Position numbers and translations under genes: made by a program
NCBI GenBank assembly: GCA_000182565.2
Contig: KQ257458.1
Origin: Spizellomyces punctatus DAOM BR117
Lineage: Eukaryota
Reading direction: 5' to 3' (one strand)
DNA length: 63,525 nt
The notes under the pieces: generated by a model
The model's input: the letters and a program-made list of their open reading frames with translations, nothing else
Told to the model about the DNA's origin: nothing
Databases searched by the model: none
In this document: positions 15,671 through 53,313 of the stretch, one piece after another
Layout: every line of letters starts with the position of its first letter
How positions within the stretch are numbered: the first letter of the stretch is position 1

Positions 15671-18380
15671 TTACTGGCGTGCAGACTGTCTTCTTTTCCA
15701 CAGCTTGTCCTGAAACGGAGGTGAAACCCTGGTGTTACTTATCAGAATGTTACTAATTGAAGCATCTCCACTTACGTCTCCATTCATCTTAGGTCCATTA
15801 ACAGGACCACTGGTAGCACGCATCAACGATGGAGAATGTACTTCTGTGGGAACAGCGCCATCACTCTGAATCCGACGAAAGTCCGCTAATGAAAAGCGGT
15901 GGTAGGGTGAGCGCGGAGTGCTATTATGCGGAGGCAGTGGAGCGGATGTGTCGCTGACCGCCGTGGATGGTCTGTTATGGGATTCGTTGGAAGGGTCGTG
16001 TTGGGGCTGAGACAGAGCAGACCCACCCAAGCCTAATAGCGCTTTGAGATGATTTTCTGGGTTATCACTACTGGGTATCTCAGGCCTGCTGCTATACACC
16101 TCCGATTGATAGCGTTCTAATGTGGCCAATGCAGGGGCATTGAAATTTGGTGGACCAGGTGTGCTCAGTGGCCATCTGCTCGCACTGTCAGCACCGCTGC
16201 TTGCTTGATTACCGCCAACACCTCCACCACCAATTCCCAACATCATCTTCAAGTGCGATTCCGCTTGCCCTGTGTTGGCTATCGGTAATGTTGGGTTCGA
16301 TGGCCCCTGTTCAGTCACGCTCCCGCGATTCTCGCCCATCAATATATCCAGCAACATCCGTTGCTTGGCTGGACCACGGTCCGCATTGCTAGTTACTGAC
16401 GCTCGTGACGGTGGCCCCGAAAATGCTTCTCGTAGAGGTTCAGAATCATAATTTGGTGGTAGAACGGTCGGTCTCGACGGCATCACTACGGGTTCCGCAC
16501 CCTGGAATGGTATCGTGGGAGGCGGTGGATTGATCGGGACAGGTATGGTGGCTTCCGGGTATGCGGCCGAACCCTTTGTCAAAATATCCAATAAGCTCTG
16601 CTTATGAGTCTGCTGGCCGCTGACGGCAGCAGGCATTGGCATAGGCACGGTGGACGCGATCTCATGGCGGCTCCTGGGAAGGAGAATCTGATTAGGTAAA
16701 TAAGGATGATGTTGGGAAAGATCAGGGTGGGTAGGAGTGGGGATAGGTACGCGGGCCTCTTGTCTTATGGATTGGGGTGTCCCGCTAGCTGCAGGTTGGC
16801 CAAACACCATCCCGAGGTTGGGAGCAATTCCCACAGGGAAAGACGGCGGTGCTCCGACTGCACTATGTGGCGTAGAAATGGTCAACGTAGTTGAGCTAGA
16901 ATGGGGTAATTGCGCAGACTGATACTGCTGAGTGTGTGCATGAAAGGGAGGAACAGGCTGCTCCACGGGTTCATTGAGCGTTGTCGACCGCACGGAAACG
17001 CCAAATACCACCGGGGGCATCTCCTTCGACACATGTGATTGCATATCGACTTGCACTCCAACGGCAGGAGTATTTACAGATGCCCCCACCCCAATCAATG
17101 CCTTGATAGATTGTGCTGCCACTTGTGCATCCATGACAGGAGTCGCTGCACCTTGTTTGGCCACATCTGTCCGTCGTAATAGTTGATAGTTGCCAACCAC
17201 CGACGCTGTTGGCATCCTTGAGTCGATGCCCGACTCTGTACCGGATCGGATGCCGGCGTCCGATGTCGCCCCTTCCCCTTCGCTGTCCGTTGCAGTATTG
17301 TAGCCCATTACTATGGAAAGATGACGCCCATTCCGCGCTTTGCCCTGGCGCTTCGCTTTTCGATATTTACTCATCCACTGCCGAAGGCCGCTAACGAATG
17401 CTGTGACCATGTAGTATTTTTGACGCCTCTCCCCTTTGGAGACTGGTACGTTCTCATCTTTGTTCCATCCCGGCAGATCATTAAGTTTGTGCCACCTGAT
17501 ATCCTGAATTGAATCAGTATAAGCATGAAGGTACAAACAGTGAACGAGCAGAACAGTCCTAAGAAGAAAACCATCTTACCCCGATCTCCTTTCGAGTTTG
17601 TGGAATGAATGTGGTTGCCTCAGGAACACCGGTCAAAATGTATAATCGTATTCTTTGTCCCTTGATCGTCCTCTCTACATACTCATTAACGCGTAAATAT
17701 GGAGTTATGTCGAATCCTGTCTCTTCTTTGACCTTGTGCCCAAAAGAACGATCAGGAGGAATATTTGGATGCGCTGACCATCAATACCATTCTTACCTCA
17801 CGAATAGCACATGGAGCTTCTGGCTCATCCTTATTTATTTTTCCTTTCGGAAAACCCCAACCTGAACTTGATTTCCAGCCTTTCACCAACAAAACCTAAG
17901 GTGGACGTTAGCAAGGAGCCGACCACTAGACACAGAACACTGTACCTTATCCAAACGCTCGTTGAGGATGATTGCTCCACATACTGGCACACGGACTTTG
18001 TACTCCATAAAGTTTTGAAAGGCTTTCTCGTGATCGTGAGCCCATCGATGGAGGAGTGGACAGTGCCGAAAAAACTGGGCGCAAAAGTTTTTTAAGGAAA
18101 ATGAAGGCAGTCGCGGGTTCTCTTCGCGAACGAAGTCCTCGTAAAACCAATGAGCTTGCTCTATTTGAAAACATATTCTTTCAACCGACGCTAGTTCTTC
18201 TTCTGGAATGTTAATGATGAAACGGCTGAGAGAGGGCGGAAGTCGGTGTGAGCTACAAACATCCGACGCATGGCCAAAAAGAATACTGTGCAAAATTCCA
18301 GCTATCATCTAGTTTCCACCATCGCTGTACCTTTGCAGATCGTCCAAAACTTCTTGGAACGTCAGGTCCTGAAATGACAT
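15671..18380 (-). CDS. DCP2: mRNA decapping enzyme Dcp2 (Box A + Nudix + long disordered tail with helical leucine-rich motifs)
   Basis: [55 protein letters not shown]...CAIREV.EETGFD. The tail has SLLDILTKG / MLLDILMG / HLKALLG HLM-like motifs. The 3' end may be spliced differently. Confidence 0.93.
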
Positions 18381-18495
18381 AATTTGTCGTGGGGTAAAAG
18401 GGAGCTTTTAACACTAGCTCACACACACAAGATTCAATGTCCATTATGGCACGTGATCCGCCGTGTGTAAGCCACCTTCCCCCGCATATCGATAA

Positions 18496-19175
18496 CACTA
18501 GGACCCATTATTATCCGGATTAATCCGGTTAATCATATCGCATAATCAGAACCCCCATCTATTGCTCAAAGCGGTGTGGCATGCTAATGTAACTTTTTTT
18601 TTAAACTGCGGTGAGGCACATGTTGAAGGTCTATAAAAGGGGGGCCTTTGCTGTCTCTTCCCTCTTTCCTCTTTACCCATCCTTGACTCTCAAACCATCT
18701 GCGCAACTCTCATCGCGAGTCCATCATGAGAATGCAGATGTGGTGGTGCCGAGGACCTTGCCCTCCCGACTACAACCAACTGGAACCAGCAACAATCACT
18801 CGGAACCAACAAAGCTGCTATTATGCTGCCACATTAGTTGAGCTTGGTTGGTATGTGCTGATTGCATCATTTCATTCTGTTATTCATCTCGCTGACATGC
18901 AGTTTTTTATAGTCTCCAAGTCTTGTCACTGAACATCCTCCAGCTTGCGAGTCTCCCCAATGTTGTGAAGACTCTGGCTTCAATGCCATCAAGAGTTCTG
19001 GATCAAGGCTTAGTAGGGACCGTGTGTGGTGGTGGGCAATTATCCGGTTAGAACCAACCGTTACGTATTGCGTGTATAATTGCCTAGTAGTAGTTAGATA
19101 GCTTTTCCGAACCGGTTGTCGCCGGTTTATTCCCTGGTGTAGTAGCTAGTGCCAGTTTCTGTCACCTCTACACTA
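18496..19175 (+). mobile_element. Non-autonomous Fanzor1-type 'ghost' element, copy 1 (left TIR mostly lost)
   Basis: Aligns along its length with 20845-21577 and with the reverse complement of 47766-48375. Right TIR CTAGTGCCAGTTTCTGTCACCTCTACACTA is intact; the left end starts at CACTAG. Confidence 0.85.
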
Positions 19176-19195
19176 TATTTTACAATGTCACCAAC
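19101..19195 (+). ncRNA. Putative Fanzor omegaRNA: 75-nt scaffold (19101-19175) + flank-derived guide TATTTTACAATGTCACCAAC
   Basis: GCTTTTCCGAACCGGTTGTCGCCGGTTTATTCCCTGGTGTAGTAGCTAGTGCC...CTACACTA, with stems AACCGG/CCGGTT and TGGTGTAG/CTACACTA. Closely resembles the SpuFz1 omegaRNA scaffold as I recall it (alignment needed). Guide length is assumed. Confidence 0.75.
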
Positions 19196-19229
19196 GATAC
19201 AATGAGCTATATACATGAGCTGCTTCCAA

Positions 19230-20093
19230 TCAAACCAGAATCAAAGCCACAGCAACGCCAGCCAAGCTCAGGCCAGCATTTCTAACTAAGGTCGAACCAG
19301 CAGACTTTGGCGCAGTTGAAGATCCAGTATTGGTTGCTGAGGAAGAAGAGGTCTTGAGCAAAACAGTCCATTCGCTGTTTGATTTGACGCTCGCACTCGT
19401 TGAGGCCGTCTTGTTTTCATCGGCATCAAATTTCGAGGTCTTTTCATCGACCATCCAAGCACCGTTCTAAATCGACAAATGTTAAAATGTGATTGGACGA
19501 ATTATGTAGACACAAATAGTGTTACCTGTACGAAAGCCAATCTAGTATCCATTAATTTGGCACCTGCACCACCAGCAGCGGTCACAGCTGCAGCGCTGAC
19601 TGCAAACTCAATCTTGGCACTTGCACCAGCAGCGAGAGCAGTACGATAGGTTACTTTCCAGGAGTTCTTGGCGAGTAATTTGAACCCGGATGGGACTGTG
19701 GATATGGATGGTGTACCAGATGTTACGGTCTAAAAATTGAAATTATAGGTTATTAGCACATACAGGAAACAGATAAAGCAAATAGTAAATTTGACAACCA
19801 ACCACTGTATTTGCCACGGTCGAATTGACATCTAACTCAAACCCATCAGGGTAAGTTACATCAACTTTCTTGCCAGCTACGAGAGTAACAGGAGTGTTTA
19901 GTGTGGCATTCACGCGCACACCATCCTTGTCGTCGTCTCCTTCCTCCTTCTCTTGACGTGCGAAAAGCACTTGATTTGTGCGTGAAAATTGAGTTACCGC
20001 CGCGATGTCTTGGCTAGGAGTTACGGCTGCGGCGGCAGCAGAGATGCCGAGAAGCATCAAGGCAAAAGTAGAAGAGAAGATCATTTTAACCAT
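19230..20093 (-). CDS. Secreted, probably GPI-anchored cell-surface protein (3 exons)
   Basis: Signal peptide MVKMIFSSTFALMLLGISAAAA; two GT-AG introns; S/T-rich linker and hydrophobic C-terminus SAGSTLVRNAGLSLAGVAVALILV*; TATAAAA ~65 nt upstream. Confidence 0.8.
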
Positions 20094-20820
20094 GACTAAG
20101 AAGGCGATGGCAAGAAAAGCAAGAAGATTGGAGGCAAGGTGCCCAGCTGAGTCTCCTTTTATAGACCATTTCTGTTGCCCCTTGTCCTCTTCAGCAATGG
20201 ATATATCGGCTGTTGCCAAGATAATTTGCATACATAGTCTGAGGTATCATGTCAATTCACAAGGGTAGGTAGCTTGGATGTTTGGGGTGGCTTTACAAGT
20301 AAGTTTAATGGAGGGCTTTGTGATGTCTCTTTGCGTATATGGATATTCGCAACGGGTGTCCAGAGCACAGAAATTATGTTCTACTTTCATGGTAAACCAA
20401 TCAGGGTTCTCTTGGCGCATATGGATTTGTTCTGACGGTGGAGGATTCTGCAACGGTGTCAGAACATTGGAAATTCTTGTTCTAAATCAATCCCCATTCA
20501 ACCGTGGTAGCGTCACTCTCACACGATCACAAAGGCCGAAATTTGAAAGTTGAATCATCTTCCCCAGTCCCATTTAGCCACGGACAATGCGAACCATCTC
20601 TATCCCTGAGGGAGCCCTAGAGCAATGGTGTGAACTTGAATTACTTGCCAAGAGCATGTAATGTCCAATTTCCAACAAATCTATTTACGTTGCCAAGACC
20701 GAGGCGGAGTGGGAGTGGTTGATTATCTATCAGCCCGAACCTAATCGACATTCTCATCTGTTGGAAAAGCCGATACGCAAATGTATCTCTGGCTTTCAGT
20801 GTCGACATGACTGGCCAACA

Positions 20821-21577
20821 TAGTGTGGAGGTGATTGAAAATGGCACTAGGACCCATTATTATCCGGATAATCCGGTTAATCATATCGAATAATCAGAAC
20901 CCCCTCTATCGCTCAAAGCGGTGTGGCATGCATGTAATGTTTTTTTTTTAAACTGCGGTGAGGCGCATGCCAAAGGTCTATAAAAGGGGGGCCTTTTCCC
21001 TCTTTCCTCTTTACCCATCCTCGACTCACAAGCATCTGCCCAACGCTCATCGCAACCCACATTGCAACCTCATAGTGACCCACATTGCAACCTCATTGCG
21101 ACTCGGTCAATCATGAGCATGCAGATGTGGTGGTGTCGAGGACCTCGTCCGCCCGACAGCAACAACGGCCAGAACCAGCAGCAACCAGTTGGATCTGTTG
21201 ACAAACCTACTATTATGCTGCCACATTTGTTGAGCTTGGTTGGTATGTACCGATGGCATCATTTCTTATCATCTGGTCATCTTCTGACATGCAGTTCTAG
21301 TCTCCAAGCCTTCGTTACTGAACATCCTCCGGCTTGCGAGTCTCCCTGACGATATTAACTCTCTTGCGACGACTCTCGCTTCAATGTCGATCAAGAGTTG
21401 CGGATCAAGGCCCAGTAGGAACGCGTGTGGTGGTGGGCAATTATCCGGTTAGAACCAACCGTTACGGATTGCGTGTATAATTGCCTAGTAGTTAGTTAGT
21501 TAGCTTTTCCAAACCGGTTGTCGCCGGTTTATTCCCTGGTGTAGTAGCTAGTGCCATTTTCTGTCACCTCTACACTA
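20821..21577 (+). mobile_element. Non-autonomous Fanzor1-type 'ghost' element, copy 2 (complete, 757 bp)
   Basis: 30-bp TIRs at 20821-20850 and 21548-21577 (27/30 match), each bounded by TA. Left junction reads CAACA|TAGTG (CATA). No transposase or nuclease ORF. Confidence 0.9.
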
Positions 21578-21597
21578 CAAAGAAATGATACGTGTGC
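21503..21597 (+). ncRNA. Putative Fanzor omegaRNA: scaffold 21503-21577 + guide CAAAGAAATGATACGTGTGC
   Basis: Scaffold differs from copy 1 at only two positions; similarity stops abruptly after ...CACTA. Confidence 0.75.
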
Positions 21598-22453
21598 TTA
21601 GATCAGCAAGCCCCAGTGGCGCATATTAAGCCACGCTTAAGTCGACTAAGCCTATGACGCAATGTGCATTAATTGTTTAATTGAGGTGAGTTGTGTCTTT
21701 TTTTGTACTGCGCAAAAAAGGCCCTCCGAGAACATGGAATAAAATGTAGGTTCGATCGATGCCCATGTGAAGAGTGTGAAATATGGATTAGAGATGGCTA
21801 TGAAAGATAGATGTGGATATGAGATTAGTGCAATGCAAATGTTGCATGGCCAATGTGCAATGGATATGTTTAATCGCAGGATAGTTCTAGATACGAAGAT
21901 GTCATGATTGCGTTGGGGGGGGGGGGGGGGAAGGAAGCACAGGAAGGAAAATCATTTCCCCTTTTACTATTGAAAGTGTGTCAATTTGAACAGCCCGGGG
22001 GGGAAAAGGCAACCTGTCACTTTTCCCCGCGTTGATTTTTTCATACGCAACTCATACTCACAGACGTCACTCGCGGCAACTGGCCATGAACAAAAGAAAA
22101 AAAAACATGCAATGAAATGGCTATGTTTTTCTGCCTTGGTTTTTGATTTTACGTTTTTTTTGGCTTGTCCATTAGCGCGTGAGTGTGATCTCACCCTTGG
22201 CTTCTTGATTACGCATTACTCACACGAACGGACCTTTTGGATTATACCTTTATCCTTCTCCTCTGTTCGTCCCCTAGGAAGGAATTTCATTGCTTTCTGT
22301 CAAAATATCCAAAAAGCAACTGTCGACATTTAGGAGCGGATAATCAAGAAGAAAGTAAAAATCTAACGTCTTTTCGATCTGTCAACTTTGGGTAAGTTGC
22401 TTTGTTTTGTTTTCCACGCGCGTCAAATCGCCCTGGTCTTTGCGACCCAAAGG

Positions 22454-25400
22454 ATGGTCGTTCATCAAAGGGTGAAACAGCTGCGGGGGGATTGGGTGCC
22501 ATCCACCACGCTTCGTCGCTCACGCTCCCAGACTTTCTTGCAGCACAGCATGGTCAACCGCTGGTCCGTTCTCCCGGGAGGAACGCCAAAGGCCCGCAAC
22601 GCTATCGCTCCCGTCGAATCCAGTCCCTCCCTTACACAGTCTGACTTTGAAAAGTTGACGCGCATCTACGCGCTTGTCGCTCACCGAGCTCGCCGTCTCG
22701 CCATCCTCCATCGCCATAAAGACAACAAGGCCCTCGTCACATCCTACCAGGAACTCGTCATCGACTGTCACTCCTTGCTCGCCCTCGTAGAAGAACGGTA
22801 TTTCCCGTCGCGTACCGAAAAGGGTGGGCATCAGTTTGCAACATGGTCCTCTCCGTCTGGGCATCATGCGAACGCACCAAGACCTGCGAGCGATCTTAAA
22901 TTTCCTGGAGCAAAACAGTTGGCCTTGATTCAAGCGGTTGGAACATTAAAGGATGCATTAAATACTTTGTCGCGTACCATCCGGCGGATATCATCTGGTA
23001 CACCACCGCCAGGAAGCGAGAGCACCGCAAAAGGTGAACAAGACCCTCTCGAGCGGGATCTCGCAACCGTCCTAACATCAGCACGATCGATCCTGGATGT
23101 TGCCAGCAAGTTTGAGCCTTCCCAAAGAAACGATCATCGGGCATTGAACAAACGTGCATCGTTGGGATCGATCTTCTCTCGCTTTGGCAATGGCAATGGC
23201 AACGGCAACACGAGCAACAGTAACAACAACAACCACAACAGCAACAGCAACAACAGCAGCACAAACAAACTCAATCGATCCTTTTCCGACCCAGTAACTG
23301 TAGAAGAGGCCCGTGATGCAAACGGGTCGTCGGGAACAAACGTCAAAAAGACCTTGTCTCTCGCCAAAGAGTCTCGCAAACGTCGCAGCGGGCTAACCAG
23401 TGAACGCCCTACCAGTGATCCTCTCTCAAAAGACTTTCGCAATGCCCTGTCTGTATTGTCTCAACTGACTACAGTGATTGGCAGCAATCTCCAAGAGTTT
23501 CGCCTTTTGCAGAGTAACATTTCAAATTCTTCCACGCCACTCGATCATAAACTCGTAATGGATATGGAAGTACTGGAACGCTGTTACGAAGATGCATTAG
23601 ATCAGCTAGTACCGCTCAGCTCATCCCTCGCGACACTATGGGAACAAGCCTTTGTCGGCAGCATCGGCGCCATCCAGCGTCTACGCCAATCAAACGCAGA
23701 AAAGGACCAGGAAATGTCTCGTCTGACAAGGCAATGCGAGGAATTCCAAAAAATGAACACAGCACTCTTGGAAGAGAATACACTGCTGAAGCGCGAAATG
23801 GAATTCATTCGTCGAACGGGCATGGAACCCTGTGCGACCCCCATGTCTGAGGACATGCGCTCCATAATCTCCCTCCCCCTCCCTAGCCCCGCTCTCGAGC
23901 TGGAACTGGTTGAAACAGATCTAGTCCCCAGCGCAATGTCCTCTATCGTCGTCTCACCCCCCGAACTCGACTATGTGGAAATCGTCGAGGAACAAACCAA
24001 CCATGCCGACGCGGTCGTTTTGAATAGATTGTACAGTGAAGTACGGGAAGCGCAGGCTTTGTTGGATGATGTGGAGAAGCGGAGGAGGAGTGTCATGGGA
24101 TCTTTGGATAGACCTGCTCGACCTAGATCCGAAAAGGCGCTCACCTTGCCTCGTATTGCAAGTTCTGCGCCCTTGTGGCACGATGTAGGTTGAAGTCTTT
24201 CTGGGCGTATTGTTTTATTATTTCCGATACTCAACGTTCTACAGTTTTTCCCTCAGGATCCCAAAGCCAAGGCATGTGTCATTATCCAAGCACGCTGGCG
24301 AGGCTATAGGGCGCGGAAAACTTTCAAAGGCATCAAACTCCGTTTGATGATTGTAAACGAAATGCTCGACACGGAGGCATCCTACGTGAAGGGCCTTCTG
24401 ACCATTCACAAGGTAAATATTTATCAAACCCACATTGTGTTTCTTTAGCGCTAACTTTCTTTTGACAGGAATTTATGATTCCACTCAAAGAAGAAATGAA
24501 TCAGAACAGCAGCATTATCAGTCGCAAGGATTATGACTGCATCTTTCGGCACGTGGAAGAGATTATGGCGTTCAACCAGCTCTTGTTGGATGATTTGGTC
24601 GAGCGGGTGGCGTTTTGGCATTTTGAGCAGGTTTTGGGGGATATTTTCATTCGTGCTGTAAGTATCTTGCAAGTGTTTAAGTTGATTGGGTATGTGGCCC
24701 TAACGCGCGGATCATGTAGGCCGAATCGATGAAAATATATGCGCACTTTGTCAACAAGTAGGTCCAATAGATAGCGGTAGTTATCCGTTTTTGATGTGAC
24801 TGACTTGCTTTTCAGTTACGACCAAGCTGTCGAAACCCTTAACCGTGTCTCAGAAAATCCAGCCTTTGAAAAAAAGCTACAGGTAACGACGCTCTAAAGA
24901 ATGCTGGAGATATAACGCATCCTAACACCTTGAGATGCAGGATATCAGCAAAAACATGGGCACCCGCGCCCCAAATTTGACCGACCTCCTCATCACACCA
25001 GTTCAACGTCCTCCTCGCTACCTTCTCATGCTCAAGGTAACCCACCAACCCCGTATTTCCCACGCCCTTGCACATCTAACCCCCGTTTCAAAACAGGAAC
25101 TCTTGAAGCGTACACCATCTACCCACCCCGACCATAACTCCCTCACCACCGCTCTCCAGAAAATGGAACGCACTGTCCAAATCATTAATGAACGCAAAAA
25201 GCGGTTCGAGATGATGAAAAAGGTTCAGGACATGGTTATCGGGAGTCCATTTGTAAGTCACACCGTGATATCAACATTCGTTGGCCGCGATACTTATATA
25301 TTTTTCTTTTGTCATTCTGTAGGAACTCGTGACACCTGGCCGGTACCTAACCCACCAGGGCCCCCTTCTCGAACTAAATGATCAAGGACCCGCTGCCGAC

Positions 25401-26768: not shown

Positions 26769-26840
26769 GGGCTCAGCCGGGAATCGAACCCGGGACCACC
26801 CGCACCCTAAGCGGGTATTATACCACTAAACCACTGAGCC
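26769..26840 (-). tRNA. tRNA-Pro(AGG)
   Basis: 72-nt cloverleaf GGCTCAG...CTGAGCC with anticodon arm CCCGC-TT-AGG-GT-GCGGG and GGTTCGATTCC T-loop; identical to 57203-57274. Confidence 0.97.
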
Positions 26841-31281: not shown

Positions 31282-34200
31282 CTATCCAAAAAAGTCTAAA
31301 ATACCCTTCACACCCTGCTCTAGTCTCTCAAGATGGCCCATTCCGCCCTTCCAATCCTCAGAGACCAAACACCAGTTGTCTAAAACTATTTTACCACGTT
31401 CAAGTCGGTTCGCCACATACTCGACTCCTTGATCCGCTTCACCTTGCAGGCTCTCCAAATACCTCTCAACATACTCTGTGACCATGTCACAAAAATAAGG
31501 TATGGATGTCGTTTTGTATCGGGTTGTAAATGCTGTCGACGGGGTCGTTGGGGTGGATGGCGTAGGTGGGTCAGTCGGAGAGGCAATGAAGTCGCCGCGG
31601 AGGTGCGATATGAGGCGGAGAATGGTGGTGCAGTTGTTGATGAGAGGGGCGTGAATGGACGGTTGAGGCGGAATGGTTACTGTAACGGGCTCAAGTTGGG
31701 TAGGAACCGAGAGGGCATGCAACTTCTCCTCCGTGTCTAGAAATTGTGAATAGTTGCTAGAAACGGATCCAGCCATTCCTTCCGTGCCCAAAGATTCCGC
31801 AGCAGGAACACGGACCAGTCCCATGAGTTCATCTTCCAGTTCCTTGAGATCAGGAATAGAGACGGCCCGAGACACAATCATGCTGGTTGTTGCCGGGGGC
31901 GGCGCTACGGGTGTTGATGGCAGAGGAGTGGTCGGTAACGGTAGCGCACTAGTTGGAGCAGGTTTGGCCGGTGGGATCGCGGGTTGATAAGTTTCCTCCC
32001 GAACCGTTGGCGTCGACGGAATACTAGAAGGATTTTGCTTGGGAGACGGGGGTGGGGTTCCGGACTGCTGCTCAACTCCGCGGGATGGTTGTGCGTAAAC
32101 ATTTGTTGAAACGGGAGGAGGTACTGATGGCACTAGCGTTTGCCTCATCTCATCACTCTTCAGATTTCCGTTCACCGGGACAGATCCGTTGCTCAATACT
32201 GCTGCCGCCTGCGGCGCCGCGGAAACGTGGACAACTGCCCCACCAGCACCTTGATCCCTTTCCACCAACTCTCGCAAACTCTGCCGCCACGCTCCTACCT
32301 TGTGCACGCTAGGATGTTTCGGCCAGCGAAGTGTGTCATCCCTAAGGCGTTTACCCGCAGCCGCGTCTACAAAGCCATTTTTGACCACTCTTCGGGCCCC
32401 ATACCTCGGGGAACCAGGTCTCTTGGATGCAGAGGCCATATCGCTTCCACTTCCCTCGTCGTCAGAAGCGACCCCTCTGCTCATTCTTGTTAAAAGGAAC
32501 GTCCAGCGTTTAAATTCTTGAGCAGAGGGCGCACATAGAACATAATCTTTTGACTTTGTACGAACGATGAATGTGCGTGACTTTTTGGCTTCAGGATCTT
32601 TAGGCGGTTGCCTGACAAGTGATCTCACGCTTATGATCGATGATGTAGGAATGATCCACTTGGGTAGGTAGTACCCTTTTGCCCATACATCTGGCTTGCC
32701 GTCCTTGTTATCTTCTCCAATTGAAGCAACAAGCGGGTTAGTTAAACTAGGCATTGGTGGATCGGTGGGATAGAAGCGCTGCAGGGCTTGGGCAAATTCT
32801 CGTCCCATGTTGTTGTCTTGGAATTTGTCGGGGGAAAATGTAAGCAAATTGGAGTTTGCAGGGAGACGGTATTCTTTTGGCGATAGACAAATGAGGAGTA
32901 CTCCGTCGAACCGGAAGAGGCTGCCAATGAAGATTAATCAGAAAATAGTGCAAAGAGGTCAATTACCCAGATACACTGCTTACCGCTTTTGAAACCGTTT
33001 ATGTCGGTTCTGCTTCAACAAATATCCAGAGAAAATCATAGAGGTGAATTCATTCTCGGTTGGCACAACCGAGTGGGATTTCGCATCATGTGCAGGAGGC
33101 TGCATTGAGAAGGTATTTCTTGTGTCTATCATTTGGCTATCTCGTTCAGGAGAGTCCTGATACTGAGGAGGCTTGTTGTACACTGTGTGTGACATGCTTC
33201 GCTCTGCCGCCGTGGCAACCGGTGACCCGCGATGATAACTCTGCGATGAGAGATTGGAATCCGCTCGTGATCGCCCACTACCGGGTTCGTACCGATGAGG
33301 GTGACGTTCAAGTAAAGCAGGTGATCCACGACCGTGTCGGTTATTTTCCTCCAATGCCTTAGCGTAGGCGCCAGCGCCCGCACCCGGTTCAGATCGCATA
33401 TGTATCATACTTATATTCGCCTGTGGATTGCCCATCTCCAATACAGAAGCACGCATTTTGGGTGACTGCTCTGTGGATCCAGGTGACTCTGTTCCTGCCT
33501 TTCCAAACGGTAAGTCCAAGGTTGCATCATCTAATAAAACGGTTCTGGTTTTCGGCGACTCGATCTCATTATCTACAGTTTCCTCAGTCTCTGCCTTTTG
33601 GCGGACAACTGAGGAGGACACGGACGCTTCCGATGCACCAGAACTTGTTTGGGAGCCGGTTGTGTCCTGCTTTTCCGAGTTCTTCCTCGGTGGTGGAGGT
33701 AACGAGCCCCGAACAGATTCCATCGGTGGTGATATGAAGGAGCCCCGCACTTCCATTGCTACCGGAGCATACATGGAGTCGTGGCCATATTGACTGAAGA
33801 GGCCTGTTGCAGACGATGAAGGTCGTTCACCAGAAGTATGGTCAAACGTGCCTCCGGGTGGCCCATAAGACGCATTGCCGTCAATATAGGAACGCATGCG
33901 AGCAGGGGAGAGTGAGCGCGAGCGGCGATTATCACGCGTCTGCTGTCTATTCACTCCATGTTGATCTCCTCTACCTCTAAATTCTTCTGATCTAGCGCCA
34001 TTAAGATACTGGCGGTGTGTAGGCGGGACTCCATGTTTGTGATTGCTTGCCAGATACTGACTATCGCCGCTGACGAATGCACGGTTCGGGATTGAAGGGA
34101 GAGCTCCACTCGGTGGCGGAGAAAGCGGTGGAAGTAGTTGTTTCTCGTGGATGAGTTTCGTCTGGATGCTTAAGGGTTGGATCCGACCTTGGGGGCCATG

Positions 34201-34480: not shown

Positions 34481-35467
34481 TTACAAGGGGAGACGACGTG
34501 CGTGGCAAATGTTGCATTGCAGTCGGTGGGTATCGTCCAGGCTGTCCTGATTCGCGCATTCACTCGTGAGCCACAAAGGGCGTATTGAGGATTGTGTGTC
34601 TACAATACAAGTTCTATCCAATTGAACTTTTTGAGTACCAGCCATTCTTTTGCACAAGGATATGCCCTTGTCCACCTACCAGTTTCCTACTGATAATTTA
34701 AGATGCCCGGCTTCAATCGGCAGCAGCTCGCCAACTCCGTTTGTCGTCCAATTCCCCAAGCTTCGTCTGTTTTTTTCCCACGTTCAACTTGCAAAAGCCG
34801 TGGTTTGCTTGTACCGATTTCTTGGATTTCTTGCCTTTTGCGGCTTCGTCCCACACAGGTCACATGGCTGCCCAGATAGCTGGTTGGATCCGGCTAGAAA
34901 CTTTGTGGGCTTTGTCGGAGTTTGGTGCATCGCCCATTCCGGTGACAGCAACACTTGTCCGATACGCTAGGCGCTACAGTGCTTGCTCATTCATATCACC
35001 CAGGGTGTCATGGCAGAGATTCGAAAGAGCCTTAAATGGCAGCAGCGGGAAACATCCGATTTGGACCATTGCACATATCATTTACTGTTAGCTCTGTGAT
35101 GGGTTATCCAAATTGAAACTGCCCGGCATCACAAGCCAAGTGCAGTCCCTGCTTGTAATAGTCCAAGTCGTGTGCTTTAAATAGAATGTACTCAAGCCTG
35201 GGTTGAGCACTCTATGGACTCATTAGGCCAAATAGGGATACATCGGATGCTTACTTGATAATTAACACTCCGATCCGCTCGTCAAGGGCCATATCATTCA
35301 GTCTCCCTATTGTTGATTGTATTATATATTATATCTTCTGAGTATAGAACGTTTGATGGAATTGGACGGCCTATGCAGAGCAGTTGGAATCTGGTGCGTT
35401 TACCCTTGAAATATCTGGGGTAGCAGAGCGCCTTGCGGAAATTCGTCACTGGGTCCGTGACTGTGGA

Positions 35468-38400
35468 ATGATGCTTGGTCAAGTTCTCTCGCTGGTCTGT
35501 TTGGCTATTCTGCTTCAGGTTTCCCGCTCTGCCGTTGTCAGTGGTAGGGTAGACTCTATAACACTAGACATTGCATTGTCAGATGTGTTGGGACGGCAGG
35601 CATCTGCAGGAAGTGTGCCCACTGGATTGCTATCTACGTCAGCATCAGCCACAGCGACAAGTCTCAGTTCTTCACCCCAATCGAGTGCTACATCAACGTG
35701 GGACTCATCGTCGAGTCTCTCCCCCTCCAGTACCAATGCTTTCCCATCATCTTCAGCGTCATTTGGTACTGCATCCTCATCGTCATCTTCCTCCGCCCCC
35801 ATCACTACCTCTACCCCGATAACTGTCTCTTCCTCGGCATCGGGACACTCTTCCACTGCCGGCTCTGCCACCTCGAGTACATTTGCGCCAACGCCTCTTC
35901 CGTCTGCTATTGCGCCTTCCCCAATTACAGTTACGGCCATCGAACCACCCACTCTGTACACAAACCGTGGTCGACAAAATATTATACTTTCAGGAAATGG
36001 CTTTTCGATCTTGCGAGCGGCCGAGTTCTCTGTCAGTTTCACAAATATCACCATTCCAGCTGGAGCAACCACCGTGACAACTTTGTCAGATTCAGTTGTC
36101 GCAGTCACCGTCGATACCGATGCCATTAGCTTAAATGGCGACGTGTACCGTAACGGCTCCCTCATTATCTCCATTAGAGGAGCCGCCGACACCGTAAGGG
36201 ATGTGCGGTGGGTGGATCCCGTGAAGTCAATAGCAACGATAGTTTCGCCGAGCAAGGTGACCATTGGAGTGGGCAGCCCAGTGCATATAACAGGAATCAA
36301 TTTGCTCCCCCCAGTAGGGCAAGCACTTTGCGTGTTTAATGCCACCAGAATATCAGCAACAAACGCTACGTATGATAACGGAACCTATACCTGCCTTGCC
36401 CCTGATATGTATGGAAGCGGTATCCTGGAAGTGAATCTTCTCTACTATACACCTCAGCGGGATCTCTCGTCTTTTGGCGGCAGAAACTCTACCGACTATA
36501 ACCGGCCAACTGACTATGTCAGTACTGTAGTTGGGCAACCCCTATTGCTGTATTACCGTGCCGGTCCTCCAAAGGTCATCTATGCTCGTTTTACTATAAC
36601 CGGAGCAATCGAGTTTCGGTATGATCGGCCGGTGACAGTGTACGACGCAAATCTCTTCGCAGTGGATCCCAAAGCCAGTCATTCCACCTTGATTAGTGCT
36701 CTAAACGGTCGGGAAACCTTTACTTGTGAAAAGATGTTCCTGAATCCTAATGGAGGGACAGGACGCTTGTGGGTCACCCAAGCAAATGCAGAATGTTATA
36801 TCCAGCGAATGGATGCAAGGACTTTTAGGATTATCATTGGTGCGAGTGAAGCCCAGAAGATAATTGAAGCTGGCCTTTCCCCAGTGGTGGCAGGTGACTC
36901 GCTGTCACTAAAGCCAGGTGCAGTGTGGACAGCAGGTGAGGAGCTGAGCGAGACAGGGACGGGGTCTACCATCGTTGAGGGAATTCTTTCGCCGAACCGC
37001 ATCGTGCGTCCTACCGTACTTGTTAAGGCACCGCAAATCATTGGCAGCTGCTCTGATGTGACTTTTGATCTGTCGAGGTCGATGGGATCGGCTGGACGTA
37101 ATTTCAATCAAAGCACTTTCAGTGTCGCCCCCGCTGTAGATTCACTGCAAGCAGAGCTGACCGCGTTTGCCAAAGCTTTCATTTTGCGTAATGAGCTGGT
37201 GTACACTATTGCGGCATCCAAAATCCCTGTTGGAAGATACCAATTCACCTTTACCTTAAGGAACTTCCTTGGAGGAGTTGGAACGTCGACCTTCATATTA
37301 GAGAAATTTGACCGGCGAGATATTCCTTATGTTACTATAACGGGTCCGGCCAACGATGCTCCATTGGACCAGTTGCACACTATAACGGCCGAGGTTGCTG
37401 CGACATGTGGAGCTCTCCGACCAGTGAGTTTTCAATGGGAATCGCAAGACGTACTCATTTCTACGGCAAATGGCACAATGGTTACAATGGAAGCGTATTC
37501 TTTGAGTCATCAAAGTCGATACTCCTTTATAGCTCGTGCTAAGTTCACGGATGAACCTAGTCCAACGCTGTGGACGTTGAATTACACGTTTACGACAGAG
37601 CTGGATCGAGTCATGCCAGTTACCATCACAGAGGTGTTAGCCGGTGGTGGAACGAATAAGAATGCTTCTCAGTCTCCATTGCTTCTATCAACGACACTTT
37701 TTGACAGTGGCTATCCGCCCAGTAATGTCAACATCTCTGACTTTACTTGTATATGGAATTGCACCCGAGTGGGAGAACCTTTCGGGACTCCATGCATCAA
37801 AGAAGAGACAGGGCAAGGAGCTTCTATTCCCGCCATCTGTACTGGTGCCGATATCACTGGCTACTTAGATACAGGAAGATATGCTTTTACTTTAGAGACC
37901 GTACGGATCGGTACTGGAGCTATCAGCTCGACAGACGAGAGTGGAGCACCAATGTTCGTCGATGTAATCGACCAGTGGATCCCGCTAGTTACCGTTACCC
38001 CAAATATGCCATACCCTTCGCGCTGGGACTTGTACGAGCTACGCGCAGGCGTCAACCCAATCTCTGTTCTCAATGGTGTTGACAAGGTGAGGTATTCTTG
38101 GTTTTCCAACGAATCTTGTCACGGAGACATCTTCTCCACGGTAGACGTGGCGGACACGTCCAAGGTGCAATGGCAGCCAGGTGCACCAACCCTCCGTTTC
38201 CTGCCACAAACCCTGCTAGCGGCTGGAAAGTATTGCTTCACTGTGTTCGCGAATGATACGGCACGGAACGCTATTGGTCAAGCGTCTATAGTGGTGTCTG
38301 TTCGGGAAGCACCGTTTGCTGGATACTGTTCTTTGAATGCTACCGATGGACTCGCCTATCAGTCGGTATTCAGGATAAGTTGCGCTGGGTGGGTCACGGA

Positions 38401-40159
38401 TCCTCAATCGAATCCCCTGTTCTACACCTATTGGATTCGAAAAGTCGGTGACATACCCTGGAGCAATTTGGGCCCACGCTCACAATTTTCCGTGCTCGAC
38501 ACGGTGCTCGCGGAGGGAACATATGAAGTTACAGTCAACGTTACAGATGCTGCAGGCTCTGTTGGTGCTCTACAACCCGTCTACAGGCTGACGGTCAGAC
38601 CTCGCCTCACTAGGCGACAGGTGCAGCCAATTTCAGAACCCGCCGTCACGGCCTTCGCCTTTCTGAACGCTTCTATAGAGAGCTATCTAGCCACCTCCGA
38701 CTACCGAACAGCTCAAACCAACCTTGTTGTGGCTATTCAAGATCTGAGCCCAGAGTTGCTGAATACTGCGTACCACGATACTCTCCTCACATTTTTTGGC
38801 TACCTTCTCAACTCTGGAAGCATTTACATGGACGCCCAATCTGGAGGCCCTTATATGTTGCACGCGCTGCAATCCATGACAATGGACTGTTACAATCTTA
38901 CGACGAATATTACTACCAGGCTACTGAGTTCTTTGAATGCCGTTATGACACAGATTGACGAGACCACCCGAGGGGCGGGAAACTGTGTTGGAAGCGCAGC
39001 TACGAATGATGCAATGAAGGTTTTGGATGCAGTGATGGGCTCACTAACACATCATCCAGATGAAGGGGATTATAGAATTATCACACAGCTGGATGGAATC
39101 ATGAAGAGGATTGAAAGCTGTGTGTATCGAACGTTAACGTGTGGTGGACCTGTTTTCACCGTCGATCAACAATTTGTAAACAAAACGGTGGGAATCGCTC
39201 AAGTCGATCCTTCTACTGGCCATTTGGACTTCTGCGGGCGGTTCAACCTTCCTGCCTCAGCTAGTCCGGTTAGCAGTGGTTCTTGTCTCAAGTTCAGCTG
39301 TGCCGTAGTAAATAGTAATGCGCTCACATCATCAGTGGGCACAGCTGCCATGGCGGGTCTTGGAAGCAACCTCACTAGCTTATCGTTGTACGGAAGCACG
39401 CCCATGGTGCCCTTGAATATCTCACTGCCAGACCAAAGCATTAATATTACTCTTGGTGTCGATCGTGAGATTCTCGCTCGGCAGCAGGCGCAGCCTGGAT
39501 CATCACTTGTTTGTGCATGGTTTGACTATGTGAAAGATGGAGGGCGATGGTCGACAGACGGATGCACCTTGGCCGCATTGAATGAGACAACCTTGACAGG
39601 TGTTTGCCAGTGCAGCCACCTGACGGACTTTGTAATAGACCTTCAAAATCCAGGTGGAAGTACCCCACTTGTCCAGCCATCGATACCAACTCCAACGTCA
39701 ACGTCTACCACGTCGCCTGACGACATGAAACCACCGATTGCCGAACCTCAAGGAGCACCGACACCATCTGCATCTTCAACTGAGAGCGTGCTAGCAGGCC
39801 CTCCCCAAGATCAAGTGTCTAGCAACTCTGGTAAAATAGCAGGAGCAGTTGTGGGGTCGACAGCAGCCGTAGCTCTCCTTGCCGGTCTATTATTTTGGTA
39901 CCGTCGCAATCATAACCACAAGTGGTGGACATTCCAGGGCCTTCCCAGAGCAATCCCACCTCCGCAGCAGCCGCTCCCAACATCTCTCCCCCGTCAACCG
40001 CTACCAATGGCCGTTCCTGGCCCACCTCGCGCATACGGTTTCAGAGAAGCACGACGTGAGGAGTTGCCCGAATACGTGTTTCCGCCGACGTGGCAGGAGC
40101 ATTTGGAAAATGTTGGCCAGGCTGGGGGGAGTACAGAGAGGCTACACACAGGAGGTTGA
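35468..40159 (+). CDS. Polycystin-1/REJ-like single-pass receptor: signal peptide, S/T mucin region, IPT-like, REJ, GAIN/GPS, TM
   Basis: Intronless ORF of ~1560 aa. REJ-like motifs DLSRSMGSAGR and P..GYCS...TDGLAYQSVFRISCAGWVTDP..PLFYTYW; GPS CAWFD...WSTDGC.....CQCSHLTDF; TM IAGAVVGSTAAVALLAGLLFWYRR. Confidence 0.85.
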   Translation: MMLGQVLSLVCLAILLQVSRSAVVSGRVDSITLDIALSDVLGRQASAGSVPTGLLSTSASATATSLSSSPQSSATSTWDSSSSLSPSSTNAFPSSSASFGTASSSSSSSAPITTSTPITVSSSASGHSSTAGSATSSTFAPTPLPSAIAPSPITVTAIEPPTLYTNRGRQNIILSGNGFSILRAAEFSVSFTNITIPAGATTVTTLSDSVVAVTVDTDAISLNGDVYRNGSLIISIRGAADTVRDVRWVDPVKSIATIVSPSKVTIGVGSPVHITGINLLPPVGQALCVFNATRISATNATYDNGTYTCLAPDMYGSGILEVNLLYYTPQRDLSSFGGRNSTDYNRPTDYVSTVVGQPLLLYYRAGPPKVIYARFTITGAIEFRYDRPVTVYDANLFAVDPKASHSTLISALNGRETFTCEKMFLNPNGGTGRLWVTQANAECYIQRMDARTFRIIIGASEAQKIIEAGLSPVVAGDSLSLKPGAVWTAGEELSETGTGSTIVEGILSPNRIVRPTVLVKAPQIIGSCSDVTFDLSRSMGSAGRNFNQSTFSVAPAVDSLQAELTAFAKAFILRNELVYTIAASKIPVGRYQFTFTLRNFLGGVGTSTFILEKFDRRDIPYVTITGPANDAPLDQLHTITAEVAATCGALRPVSFQWESQDVLISTANGTMVTMEAYSLSHQSRYSFIARAKFTDEPSPTLWTLNYTFTTELDRVMPVTITEVLAGGGTNKNASQSPLLLSTTLFDSGYPPSNVNISDFTCIWNCTRVGEPFGTPCIKEETGQGASIPAICTGADITGYLDTGRYAFTLETVRIGTGAISSTDESGAPMFVDVIDQWIPLVTVTPNMPYPSRWDLYELRAGVNPISVLNGVDKVRYSWFSNESCHGDIFSTVDVADTSKVQWQPGAPTLRFLPQTLLAAGKYCFTVFANDTARNAIGQASIVVSVREAPFAGYCSLNATDGLAYQSVFRISCAGWVTDPQSNPLFYTYWIRKVGDIPWSNLGPRSQFSVLDTVLAEGTYEVTVNVTDAAGSVGALQPVYRLTVRPRLTRRQVQPISEPAVTAFAFLNASIESYLATSDYRTAQTNLVVAIQDLSPELLNTAYHDTLLTFFGYLLNSGSIYMDAQSGGPYMLHALQSMTMDCYNLTTNITTRLLSSLNAVMTQIDETTRGAGNCVGSAATNDAMKVLDAVMGSLTHHPDEGDYRIITQLDGIMKRIESCVYRTLTCGGPVFTVDQQFVNKTVGIAQVDPSTGHLDFCGRFNLPASASPVSSGSCLKFSCAVVNSNALTSSVGTAAMAGLGSNLTSLSLYGSTPMVPLNISLPDQSINITLGVDREILARQQAQPGSSLVCAWFDYVKDGGRWSTDGCTLAALNETTLTGVCQCSHLTDFVIDLQNPGGSTPLVQPSIPTPTSTSTTSPDDMKPPIAEPQGAPTPSASSTESVLAGPPQDQVSSNSGKIAGAVVGSTAAVALLAGLLFWYRRNHNHKWWTFQGLPRAIPPPQQPLPTSLPRQPLPMAVPGPPRAYGFREARREELPEYVFPPTWQEHLENVGQAGGSTERLHTGG

Positions 40160-47745: not shown

Positions 47746-47841
47746 AAAGCCCCGTCTCACGCGCTTAGTGTATTAGGTGACAGAAACTGGCACTAGCTAC
47801 TACACCAGGGAATAAACCAGCGATAACTGGTTCGGAAAAGC
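47746..47841 (-). ncRNA. Putative Fanzor omegaRNA: scaffold 47841-47766 + guide AGCGCGTGAGACGGGGCTTT
   Basis: Scaffold GCTTTTCCGAACCAGTTATCGCTGGTTTATTCCCTGG...ATACACTA; stem 1 shows a compensatory G-C to A-T change relative to copies 1 and 2. Confidence 0.75.
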
Positions 47842-48400
47842 CAAGTAATTCCCTCCTTACAACCAACCAACTACTACTAGGCCCAATTACACATGCAATA
47901 CATTACGGTTGTTCTAACCGGGTAACTAGCGCCCACCACCACGAGAGAAATCCTACTAAGCCCTTGATTCCGAAATTCTTTAGTCGGAGGATGTTCAGAT
48001 ACTAATTAAACCAGAATTAGACTCGGAATACGCGTGGGAAAATACAAAGATAATGCATACCTGCGATCGTTGCAGCATAGTAGTAGCAGTGTTTGCAAGG
48101 GGTTATGTTGTTGTCGTTGTCGGGCGGACGAGGTCCTCGGCACCAGAGCAATATTCTCATGATGGACTGAGACTTGTTGGGCGGATGCTTTGAGTCGAGG
48201 ATGGGAAAAGAGGAAAGAGGGAAAAGGCCCCCCTTTTATAGACCTTTGGCATGCGCCTCACCGCAGTTTAAAAAAAAAGTTACATTAGCATGCCACACCG
48301 CTTTGAGCAATAGATGGGGGTTCTGATTATGCGATATGATTAACCGGATTAATCCGGATAATAATGGGTCCTAGTGCCATTTTCAATCACCTCCACACTA
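47766..48400 (-). mobile_element. Non-autonomous Fanzor1-type 'ghost' element, copy 3 (complete, 635 bp, more diverged interior)
   Basis: Left TIR (reverse complement of 48371-48400) is identical to that of copy 2 and preceded by CAACA; right TIR at 47766-47796; TA at both ends. Confidence 0.9.
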
Positions 48401-48738
48401 TGTTGATGAGGGGTTCTTCGACGGAGGTCGCAGTAAAAAGTGATATAGAAACTCAGATACAAGCTTTTATTTCTTAACGATGCTCCAGTGTTTATTCTGC
48501 TGCTCCAGTATATGACTCCCCAACTGATGATGGCCCTTTATACAGCTCCAGCTCATGCTATACCCATGTATATGACATCTTCCAAGATCATTGCTAGCTA
48601 AGAGAATATACAATATTCCATGACGTCCATGACTATACAACACAATTAATGGGCTCCCTTTTCTCACTTCAATGTTTTCCAGAAAATATCCAGATTGTAG
48701 CAGACGTTCTGAGCAAGCCTCTGTTCAGGTCGATTTAC

Positions 48739-52527: not shown

Positions 52528-53313
52528 ATGTCCTGGAGAGATTACGGCGGTGAAGTAGCACCACCGCAACCAGCTGGTAACCGCTGGGCGGCAGCTGCTG
52601 CGCAAGCTGCGGATGGGAACAGGTCGTCGACAGGCTATCGTTCTTGGGAGACTGTGGACGACGAACCAGAAGACTATGACAACACCGACTGGTTGCAACG
52701 CAAGACAAAAAAAGTCCAAAACGATTCCCTCCAGAGTACCCGTCGTGCCTTACAGCGTTTAAACGAGACCGATGCTATTGCTACCTCCAATTTAACAAGA
52801 CTGAACCAACAGTCGGAACAGCTTTACAAGGTCAACAGCCGTCTCGAAAGCGCTGAACAGCATGTCAAAGTCAGCGACTCTAAAGCAGATCATTTAAAAT
52901 CCCTCAATCGGTACTTTTTCCTACCGTCCTTTGGTGGCAAGAAAGCAAGAGAGCGAGAAGAGGCTGCTAAACGAGAAAACGCCGAACGCTCAACTCGTGA
53001 CGAATCCGCTCTTGAGCGGGACCGACAAGCTCGTGACGAGCGCTTCCAGTCCATTCGCAATGCAAACTACATGTCATCGACTCGTGGAATGTATTCCACT
53101 CCTCAAGGTATCGAACATGATAATACAGAGGAGGAAATCGACAACAATCTGGATCAAATTTCGTCCGGCTTGCAGAGATTGAAGATGATGAGTCAGAGCA
53201 TGAACACCGAGTTGGACTCGCAGAGGGATATGATTGGGAGGATATCAGATCGTACGGACCGTACTGGGGAGAGGATTAGAAATACGACAAGAAAGATTGA
53301 TCGGATCAAATAG
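52528..53313 (+). CDS. SEC9: Sec9/SNAP-25-like Qbc SNARE
   Basis: Two SNARE motifs: SLQSTRRALQRL..T...LNQQSEQL and EEEIDNNLDQISSGLQRLKMM...ELDSQRDMIGRI. Confidence 0.8.
   Translation: MSWRDYGGEVAPPQPAGNRWAAAAAQAADGNRSSTGYRSWETVDDEPEDYDNTDWLQRKTKKVQNDSLQSTRRALQRLNETDAIATSNLTRLNQQSEQLYKVNSRLESAEQHVKVSDSKADHLKSLNRYFFLPSFGGKKAREREEAAKRENAERSTRDESALERDRQARDERFQSIRNANYMSSTRGMYSTPQGIEHDNTEEEIDNNLDQISSGLQRLKMMSQSMNTELDSQRDMIGRISDRTDRTGERIRNTTRKIDRIK

What the first reader, a model, noticed from the sequence alone, without database searches (positions are those of the whole stretch)
20816..21597. Three Fanzor1 'ghost' loci encoding RNA-guide (omegaRNA) cassettes, each with a different guide
SEEN: a ~0.65-0.75 kb element occurs three times (18496-19175 +, 20821-21577 +, 47766-48400 -). 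It has 30-bp TIRs bounded by TA, CATA at the left junction (copies 2 and 3), and a nearly invariant 75-nt right end that folds into two stems; similarity ends exactly at ...CACTA. No transposase or RuvC ORF is present. KNOWN: Fanzor1 (a eukaryotic TnpB relative) of Spizellomyces punctatus sits in TIR elements with a 5'-CATA TAM; its omegaRNA is encoded by the right end with the flank as guide, and ORF-less ghost copies exist. The scaffold here closely resembles that omegaRNA as I recall it. INFERENCE: these are guide donors for a trans-acting Fanzor, with guides TATTTTACAATGTCA.., CAAAGAAATGATACG.. and AGCGCGTGAGACGGG.., possibly a scaffold variant or a new host.
Basis: partly seen in the sequence, partly recalled or inferred. 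Interest (0 to 1): 0.92.

Follow-up and report, generated by a model that had tools for sequence, protein, structure and literature searches.

The report
Known Fanzor guide-RNA "ghost" transposons
Three short transposon copies in a Spizellomyces fungal genome carry the guide-RNA cassette of the Fanzor1 nuclease but not the nuclease gene; this class of "ghost" element was already described in 2023.

Summary
Three copies (680, 757 and 635 bp) of one element lie at the stated coordinates. They have 30-nt inverted repeats, CATA at both intact left junctions, and a 75-76-nt right end with 69 of 76 columns invariant that ends at CACTA. No ORF exceeds 93 aa.

The window is from Spizellomyces: one of its proteins is 94% identical to a named S. 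'palustris' protein. Saito et al. 2023 (PMC10432273) describe 134 such "ghost Spu-1" loci in S. punctatus. Their features are 30-nt IRs, an upstream CA, a ~550-nt conserved core, a 75-nt omegaRNA scaffold plus a 14-15-nt guide, and TAM CATA. A 2026 paper catalogued 126 ghost scaffolds.

The right ends fold into two stems with the published 6-nt linker at positions 29-34. They match 15 of 18 nucleotides named in the structure text.

One addition from public RNA reads: the core is transcribed in sense and its 58-62-nt GT..AG intron is spliced. A TATA box lies upstream. RNA depth peaks on a folded module just 5' of the scaffold, and coverage crosses the right junction of copy 2.

The parts
18496..19175 (+). 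Ghost copy 1 (680 bp). The left IR is truncated to its inner 6 nt, so the copy is probably immobile.
18632..18639 (+). TATAAAAG box of copy 1, inside a 15-nt motif identical in all three copies. The same motif is at 20977-20991 (+) and 48228-48242 (-).
   Evidence: RNA depth in copy 2 rises only downstream of the box.
18851..18912 (+). 62-nt GT..AG intron of copy 1, spliced in RNA.
   Evidence: table 5: 336 RNA reads in X22 and 0 in DNA run X23.
19028..19091 (+). Conserved folded module 5' of the scaffold in copy 1. The equivalents are about 21429-21492 in copy 2 and about 47873-47940 (-) in copy 3.
   Evidence: 2 compensatory pairs.: the highest RNA depth, 15,670, falls in bin 19002-19118.
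19101..19175 (+). 75-nt omegaRNA scaffold of copy 1. It includes the right IR at 19146-19175.
19176..19190 (+). Predicted 15-nt guide of copy 1, taken from the flank.
   Evidence: unique in the window and preceded by ACTA.
20819..20822 (+). CATA at the left junction of copy 2: flank CA plus the IR's terminal TA. This is the TAM of SpuFz1.
   Evidence: TAM taken
20821..21577 (+). Ghost copy 2 (757 bp) with both IRs: left 20821-20850, right 21548-21577.
21243..21300 (+). 58-nt GT..AG intron of copy 2, spliced in RNA.
   Evidence: table 5: 46 RNA reads in X22 and 0 in DNA run X23. X4 contigs 13 and 14 end and begin at the exon borders.
21503..21577 (+). 75-nt omegaRNA scaffold of copy 2.
21578..21592 (+). 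Predicted 15-nt guide of copy 2.
   Evidence: RNA depth is 112 in flank bin 21576-21692 and 0.29 in the next bin.
47766..48400 (-). Ghost copy 3 (635 bp) with both IRs: left 48371-48400, right 47766-47795. CATA lies at 48399-48402.
47766..47841 (-). 76-nt omegaRNA scaffold of copy 3. It has one extra nucleotide in stem 2 and one compensatory G-C to A-U change in stem 1.
47751..47765 (-). Predicted 15-nt guide of copy 3.

Best explanation
These are three 'ghost Spu-1' elements. They are non-autonomous relatives of the Fanzor1-carrying SPu-1 transposon of Spizellomyces, sharing its kind of inverted repeats and right-end RNA region, and they carry no nuclease gene.

Proposed mechanism:
1. Each element is transcribed in sense from an internal promoter that contains a TATA box.
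2. The transcript is spliced.
3. Its last 75-76 nt form the Fanzor1 omegaRNA scaffold: stem 1, a 6-nt linker and stem 2, which contains the right inverted repeat.
4. The first 14-15 nt of the flank serve as the guide.
5. SpuFz1 made from full-length loci elsewhere in the genome loads this RNA.
6. The complex cuts DNA that reads CATA followed by the flank sequence. That arrangement exists only at an unoccupied site (left flank CA + TA + right flank).
7. The occupied locus reads ACTA before the guide and should be spared.
8. The likely result is repair from the occupied copy, so the element is kept or copied.

Shown here: the anatomy, the fold, sense transcription, splicing, and RNA crossing the right junction of copy 2.
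Shown in the literature: ghost scaffolds support SpuFz1 cutting in human cells.
Inferred: maturation of the omegaRNA from the spliced transcript, and homing in the fungus.
For: Published description. Saito 2023 section 7 lists 30-nt IRs, CA upstream of the 5' IR, a ~550-nt conserved core without Fz, and a 75-nt region over the 3' IR. All are seen here.

Fold. Stem 1 spans positions 9-28, an unpaired AUUCCC spans 29-34, and stem 2 spans 35-75. This equals the 'two stems and a 6-nt linker, A29 to C34' of the structure text.

Named nucleotides. 15 of 18 match in copies 1 and 2. The misses are G22, C40 and G70. No other of 126,886 positions in the window exceeds 13. C40 and G70 lie in distal stem 2, where the paper says ghost and canonical scaffolds differ.

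Covariation. One pair in stem 1 changes on both sides, G-C to A-U.

Host. A window ORF is 94% identical to a named Spizellomyces sp. 'palustris' protein.

RNA. Sense reads dominate. Introns are spliced in 336 and 46 reads, against 0 in the DNA run. Depth is 112 in the unique flank bin after copy 2 and 0.29 in the next bin.

DNA. Run X23 gives about 130-1000 reads of depth inside the elements against about 8 between them, as expected of a high-copy family.

Function in the literature. Ghost omegaRNAs from four loci, and later representatives chosen from 126 unique catalogued scaffolds, supported SpuFz1 editing.

Guides. Each occurs once in the window, preceded by ACTA and not CATA.
Against: No residue-by-residue alignment to a published scaffold was possible. 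The sequences are in figures and supplements, which are not held or are closed, and text searches for them found nothing.

The 15 of 18 score needs a 1-nt shift of the 5' block. Copy 3 scores at most 10 of 18 in the script and 13 of 18 only when I counted by hand on its alignment to copies 1 and 2.

RNA ends could not be resolved. Bins were 117 nt wide, so the 14-15-nt extension is not shown. Reads inside the element come from the whole family, not these loci.

The RNA peak lies just upstream of the scaffold, not on it.

No Fanzor gene is in the window. The four ORFs of 500 aa or more gave no TnpB-type Pfam family. The three of them that were also run against PDB chains (601, 621 and 521 aa) gave no Fanzor hit. 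The whole genome is not held, so the trans-acting nuclease rests on the paper.

The species and strain are not proven, only the genus.

The ChIP origin of X23 may inflate depth on repeats.
Confidence: 0.85

Rival explanations
1. The element is an ordinary TA-targeting miniature inverted-repeat element. Its right-end resemblance to the omegaRNA is only inherited from SPu-1, and the ends are conserved for a transposase. The RNA would then have no role in the fungus.
For: TA lies at both termini and Bao & Jurka call it a putative TA target duplication. CCGG-containing motifs recur near both ends, such as the palindrome CCGGATTAATCCGG at 18515-18528, as expected of transposase binding sites. Copy 1 has lost its left IR yet persists. 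The RNA depth peak is not on the scaffold.
Against: Conservation runs 45 nt inward of the IR, across stem 1 and the linker. One stem pair changes on both sides and stays paired. Ghost scaffolds work with SpuFz1 in cells. RNA crosses the junction of copy 2. Being a MITE and donating guides do not exclude each other.
Confidence: 0.1
2. The conserved core is a small protein-coding gene of 87-93 aa after splicing. The element would then spread a peptide as well as, or instead of, a guide.
For: There is a TATA box, a conserved ATG context and a spliced intron. Copies 1 and 2 share the first 15 residues in 13 of 15 positions and the last 8 residues (CGGGQLSG) despite indels in between.
Against: Between those ends, copies 1 and 2 read different frames. 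Copy 3 reads exon 2 in another frame if its predicted intron is used. No homologue of 37-119 aa or of 120-2000 aa was found. No Pfam family and no significant PDB match was found. The peptide is not the N-terminus of a solved Fanzor.
Confidence: 0.04

Closest known systems
Ghost Spu-1 elements of Spizellomyces punctatus DAOM BR117 (Saito et al. 2023, PMC10432273; scaffolds gst1-126 in PMC13434818)
   Same: 30-nt IRs, CA before the 5' IR, a conserved core of roughly 550 nt without a Fz ORF, a 74-76-nt scaffold over the right IR, a flank-derived guide, and the host genus.
   Different: Nothing structural differs. I could not confirm that these three loci are in the published lists because the supplements are closed. 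Splicing, the TATA box and the upstream folded module are not mentioned in the passages I read (sections 7, 10 and 11 and the figure legends shown of Saito 2023; the ghost passages of the 2026 paper).
SPu-1, the Fanzor1-carrying element (Bao & Jurka 2013, PMC3627910)
   Same: Terminal inverted repeats, putative TA duplication, and a right end that encodes the omegaRNA.
   Different: SPu-1 is about 2.1 kb with one 633-638-aa Fanzor1 ORF. According to Saito 2023 its IRs differ from ghost IRs at seven positions and its stem 2 has an 8-nt loop where ghosts have a 3-nt bulge. That comparison was not tested here.
TnpB omegaRNA of IS200/IS605 elements and their nuclease-less derivatives in bacteria (recalled, not looked up here)
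   Same: The guide RNA is encoded by the right end and reads into the flank. The TAM sits at the left junction, so only the empty site is a target.
   Different: The bacterial elements move as single strands through TnpA, lack inverted repeats and target duplications, and their RNA has a pseudoknot that the SpuFz1 RNA lacks. Here the element is a eukaryotic inverted-repeat element with a spliced transcript.

Membership tests
Ghost Spu-1 element (Fanzor1 omegaRNA-only locus) | 30-nt inverted repeats at both ends | tested here: met
   copies 2 and 3 are complete, and the left and right IR of copy 2 agree at 27 of 30 positions. Copy 1 keeps only 6 nt of the left IR.
Ghost Spu-1 element (Fanzor1 omegaRNA-only locus) | Conserved CA upstream of the 5' IR (CATA together with the IR's TA) | tested here: met
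   2 of 2 intact left junctions. Both in fact share CAACA.
Ghost Spu-1 element (Fanzor1 omegaRNA-only locus) | Conserved core of about 550 nt without a Fanzor ORF | tested here: met
   The elements are 635-757 bp and the longest reading frame is 93 aa after splicing.
Ghost Spu-1 element (Fanzor1 omegaRNA-only locus) | 75-nt right end similar to the SpuFz1 omegaRNA scaffold (two stems, 6-nt linker) | tested here: met
   The fold has the linker at positions 29-34. 15 of 18 named nucleotides match. The test is indirect because no published sequence was available.
Ghost Spu-1 element (Fanzor1 omegaRNA-only locus) | RNA of 88-90 nt that runs 14-15 nt into the flank | tested here: inconclusive
   sense RNA crosses the right end of copy 2 (depth 112 in the flank bin, 0.29 in the next), but 117-nt bins give no ends.
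Ghost Spu-1 element (Fanzor1 omegaRNA-only locus) | A Fanzor1 gene with related IRs in the same genome | not testable with these tools
   No genome is held and none was found in the window. Saito 2023 reports 42 Fz loci in S. punctatus.
Ghost Spu-1 element (Fanzor1 omegaRNA-only locus) | Host is Spizellomyces punctatus | tested here: inconclusive
   The genus is shown: 94% identity to a named S. 'palustris' protein, and an exact match in NCBI, UniRef and EukProt on a 1,037,365-bp contig. The species name is masked.
Tc1/mariner-type non-autonomous element | TA target duplication and mobilisation by a DD(E/D) transposase | tested here: inconclusive
   TA lies at both ends but cannot be told apart from the IR's own termini. 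No transposase was examined.

The most novel reading that the evidence does not exclude
Ghost Spu-1 elements may be self-contained Pol II 'guide genes'. A TATA promoter would drive a spliced, probably non-coding leader whose 3' end yields the omegaRNA. A second conserved folded module directly 5' of the 75-nt scaffold (19028-19091) is the most abundant RNA portion. It may be part of the native ghost guide RNA or a processing or stability signal. I found this in none of the passages I read.
Probability: 0.3. Interest if true: 0.5.

Novelty: already known. Interest (0 to 1): 0.3.

Why it matters
Fanzor is the first programmable RNA-guided DNA nuclease found in eukaryotes, and ghost loci are its natural stock of extra guides. 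These three loci add nothing new in kind.

The RNA evidence does suggest how such guides are made in the fungus: from a spliced, promoter-bearing transcript, with an extra folded segment ahead of the scaffold. That is a testable point about guide maturation and may help scaffold design.

Tried and rejected
- Whole-genome search: no genome is held.
- Published scaffold sequence: text searches of the paper library and of two papers found none.
- Rfam: 0 matches at E up to 1 over 18300-21800. ARAGORN: 0 genes.
- Metagenome scans with a 23-nt right-end word and a 23-nt left-end word: 0 loci each. No further copies could be gathered, so family-wide covariation and frame tests were not possible.
- Mini-ORF: no PDB match better than E = 1, no Pfam family, and no homologue in two length classes. 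I rejected the idea that it is a remnant of the Fanzor N-terminus.
- Neighbouring ORFs 22388-24193, 15671-17536 and 31282-32847 as a hidden Fanzor: no such hit. These negatives assume the PDB copy holds SpuFz1, which I did not verify.
- Counting CATA in the window only gave the background rate: 446 observed against 442 expected.
- RNA/DNA differences such as 19113 C>T are best explained by one highly expressed paralogue and unequal read lengths, not editing.

Full report
**Observation.** The window holds three copies of one element: 18496-19175 (+, 680 bp), 20821-21577 (+, 757 bp) and 47766-48400 (-, 635 bp). blastn of each copy against the window found nothing further.

The 30-nt left inverted repeat occurs exactly at 20821-20850 and 48371-48400. 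It pairs with the right repeat of copy 2 at 27 of 30 positions. No shuffle of 100 gave any match. Copy 1 has lost the outer 24 nt of its left repeat.

The two intact left junctions share CAACA before the repeat, which gives CATA across the junction (pair I7). All three copies end in CACTA, after which the flanks are unrelated.

The ends are better conserved than the middle:
- Left ~175-225 nt: 93-99% identity (pairs I1 and I3).
- Right ~85 nt: 96% between copies 1 and 2, and 87-92% against copy 3 (D2, I4, I6).
- Whole elements 1 and 2: 79%.

**Host.** No genome is held for the window. The window has fungal-type introns and a REJ/GPS-domain ORF.

One window ORF (52528-53313) is present letter for letter in NCBI, UniRef and EukProt on a contig of 1,037,365 bases. 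Its only cluster mate is a named protein of Spizellomyces sp. 'palustris', at 94% identity. The window is therefore a Spizellomyces other than that strain. I recall, without a call to show it, that EukProt holds S. punctatus DAOM BR117, which would fit.

**What is published.** Saito et al. 2023 (PMC10432273; I read sections 7, 10 and 11 and the passages and figure legends returned) report the following in S. punctatus DAOM BR117:
- 42 Fanzor loci and 134 'ghost Spu-1' loci.
- Each ghost has a conserved region of about 550 nt between 30-nt inverted repeats, with CA upstream of the 5' repeat.
- A 75-nt region over the 3' repeat resembles the omegaRNA region of Fanzor loci.
- The omegaRNA is a 75-nt scaffold plus a 14-15-nt variable extension.
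- The TAM is 5'-CATA.
- Ghost scaffolds from four loci edited human cells as well as the best canonical designs.
- The discussion proposes that ghost guides let Fanzor act in trans.

A 2026 paper (PMC13434818; passages only) collated 126 unique ghost scaffolds of 74-76 nt and tested representatives of them. Bao and Jurka 2013 (PMC3627910; passages) described SPu-1 with terminal inverted repeats and putative TA duplications.

**Test against the published RNA.** The published sequences sit in figures and supplements that I could not see, and text searches found none. I therefore used two indirect tests.

The first test is the fold. Each right end folds alone into stem 1 (positions 9-28), an unpaired AUUCCC (29-34) and stem 2 (35-75), with z-scores of -3.6 to -3.8. 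The three-sequence consensus gives the same fold. The paper states two stems and a 6-nt linker from A29 to C34.

The second test uses the 18 scaffold nucleotides the paper names by number:
- Copies 1 and 2 match 15 of 18 when the 5' block is shifted by one base.
- The misses are G22, C40 and G70.
- No other of the 126,886 positions tested in the window exceeds 13.
- C40 and G70 lie in distal stem 2, where ghost and canonical scaffolds are said to differ.
- Copy 3 has one extra base in stem 2 and scores at most 10 of 18 in the script. Aligned by hand to the other two copies, I count 13 of 18.

Copy 3 also carries one change on both sides of a stem-1 pair, G-C to A-U. Rfam has no matching family.

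**Target logic.** The three predicted guides occur once each in the window. At their own locus they are preceded by ACTA. Joining the left flank (…CA), one TA and the right flank gives CATA + guide match. So only an unoccupied site carries the TAM. The paper reports that any TAM mutation abolishes cutting. This self-sparing, empty-site targeting is my inference by analogy with TnpB, and the authors also raise it.

**New anatomy from reads (one lay of 18300-21800 at 97% likeness).** One limit applies throughout: reads inside the element come from the whole family, and only the flanks are locus-specific.

- Strand: RNA run X22 lies almost wholly on one strand, and the GT..AG introns show that strand to be the sense strand.
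- Splicing: intron 18851-18912 is removed in 336 reads and intron 21243-21300 in 46 reads. DNA run X23 shows 0 for both. Joints between the two copies (98 and 34 reads) are mapping products of the repeat. Contigs of X4 stop and start at the same exon borders.
- Promoter: a TATAAAAG box, inside a 15-nt motif identical in all copies, lies upstream. In copy 2, sense depth is 4 in the bin ending at the box and 115 in the next.
- Profile along copy 2: depth climbs 115, 167, 179, 389, 696. It is 112 in the unique flank bin 21576-21692 and 0.29 beyond. RNA therefore crosses the right junction and ends within 116 nt. The bins are too wide to show 14-15 nt.
- Peak in copy 1: the highest depth, 15,670, is in bin 19002-19118, against 2,850 in the next bin.
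- Upstream module: that peak region holds a conserved folded module (19028-19091) with two further compensatory pairs in copy 3. Three sequences are too few to prove it.
- Copy number: run X23 gives about 130-1000 reads of depth in the elements against about 8 between them, in line with a family of tens to more than a hundred copies. ChIP enrichment may inflate this.

**The short ORF.** After splicing, copy 1 reads 87 aa and copy 2 reads 93 aa. They share 13 of the first 15 residues and the last 8 residues, but use different frames in between. Copy 3 reads exon 2 in another frame if its predicted, untested 59-nt intron is used.

There is no Pfam family and no PDB match better than E = 1. No homologue of 37-119 aa or of 120-2000 aa was found. 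I read the transcript as a non-coding or leader RNA, and give a coding role about 4%.

**Nuclease gene.** The elements carry none. The window's four ORFs of 500 aa or more show no TnpB-type Pfam family. The 601-, 621- and 521-aa ORFs were also run against PDB chains and gave no Fanzor match; the 1591-aa ORF was not. The nuclease must come from elsewhere in the genome, as the paper reports.

**Verdict.** The element class, its RNA, its TAM and the idea of trans guide donation are all in print, so the finding is already known. What may be new is that the ghost core behaves as a promoter-bearing, spliced transcription unit, with an abundant folded segment ahead of the scaffold. In my two library searches on Fanzor, only two of the papers listed contain the word 'ghost'. 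In the parts of those two that I read, this is not mentioned. Their supplements and figures, which I could not see, may bear on it.

Noticed in passing
window 19113, 21040 and 21313 (table 3): RNA reads carry another letter far more often than DNA reads. At 19113, C>T appears in 4985 of 8596 RNA reads against 5 of 825 DNA reads. At 21313, C>T appears in 90 of 238 RNA reads against 0 of 184 DNA reads. This is probably one strongly expressed paralogue plus unequal read lengths, but editing is not excluded.
   Followed up: no
window 19096 (table 7): 4658 RNA reads and one X4 contig follow the ghost sequence up to 19096 and then continue into unrelated sequence with 99% agreement. A highly expressed locus elsewhere shares the upstream module but not the scaffold.
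   Followed up: no
window 18300-18416: DNA depth left of the truncated copy 1 is about 93, against about 8 in single-copy flank. Copy 1 therefore abuts another repeat, which may explain the loss of its left inverted repeat.
   Followed up: no
window 20874-20990 (-) and 20757-20873 (+): There is antisense RNA (depth 46) upstream of the TATA box, and sense RNA (depth 58) over the left repeat of copy 2. Both are unexplained.
   Followed up: no
window 18515-18528 and 48344-48357 (13-nt variant at 20864-20876): A perfect 14-bp palindrome, CCGGATTAATCCGG, lies just inside the left repeat. Related ATCCGGTTA motifs occur near the right end. These may be transposase or factor binding sites.
   Followed up: partly
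window 57583-57750 and 60881-61048: Arms of 168 nt, 90% complementary, enclose 3.1 kb with tandem repeats of 79 and 31 nt. This is another candidate inverted-repeat element. A 72-nt perfect inverted pair also lies at 26769-26840 and 57203-57274.
   Followed up: no
window 35384-40159: A 1591-aa ORF has REJ and GPS domains, making it a polycystin- or adhesion-receptor-like protein in a chytrid.
   Followed up: no
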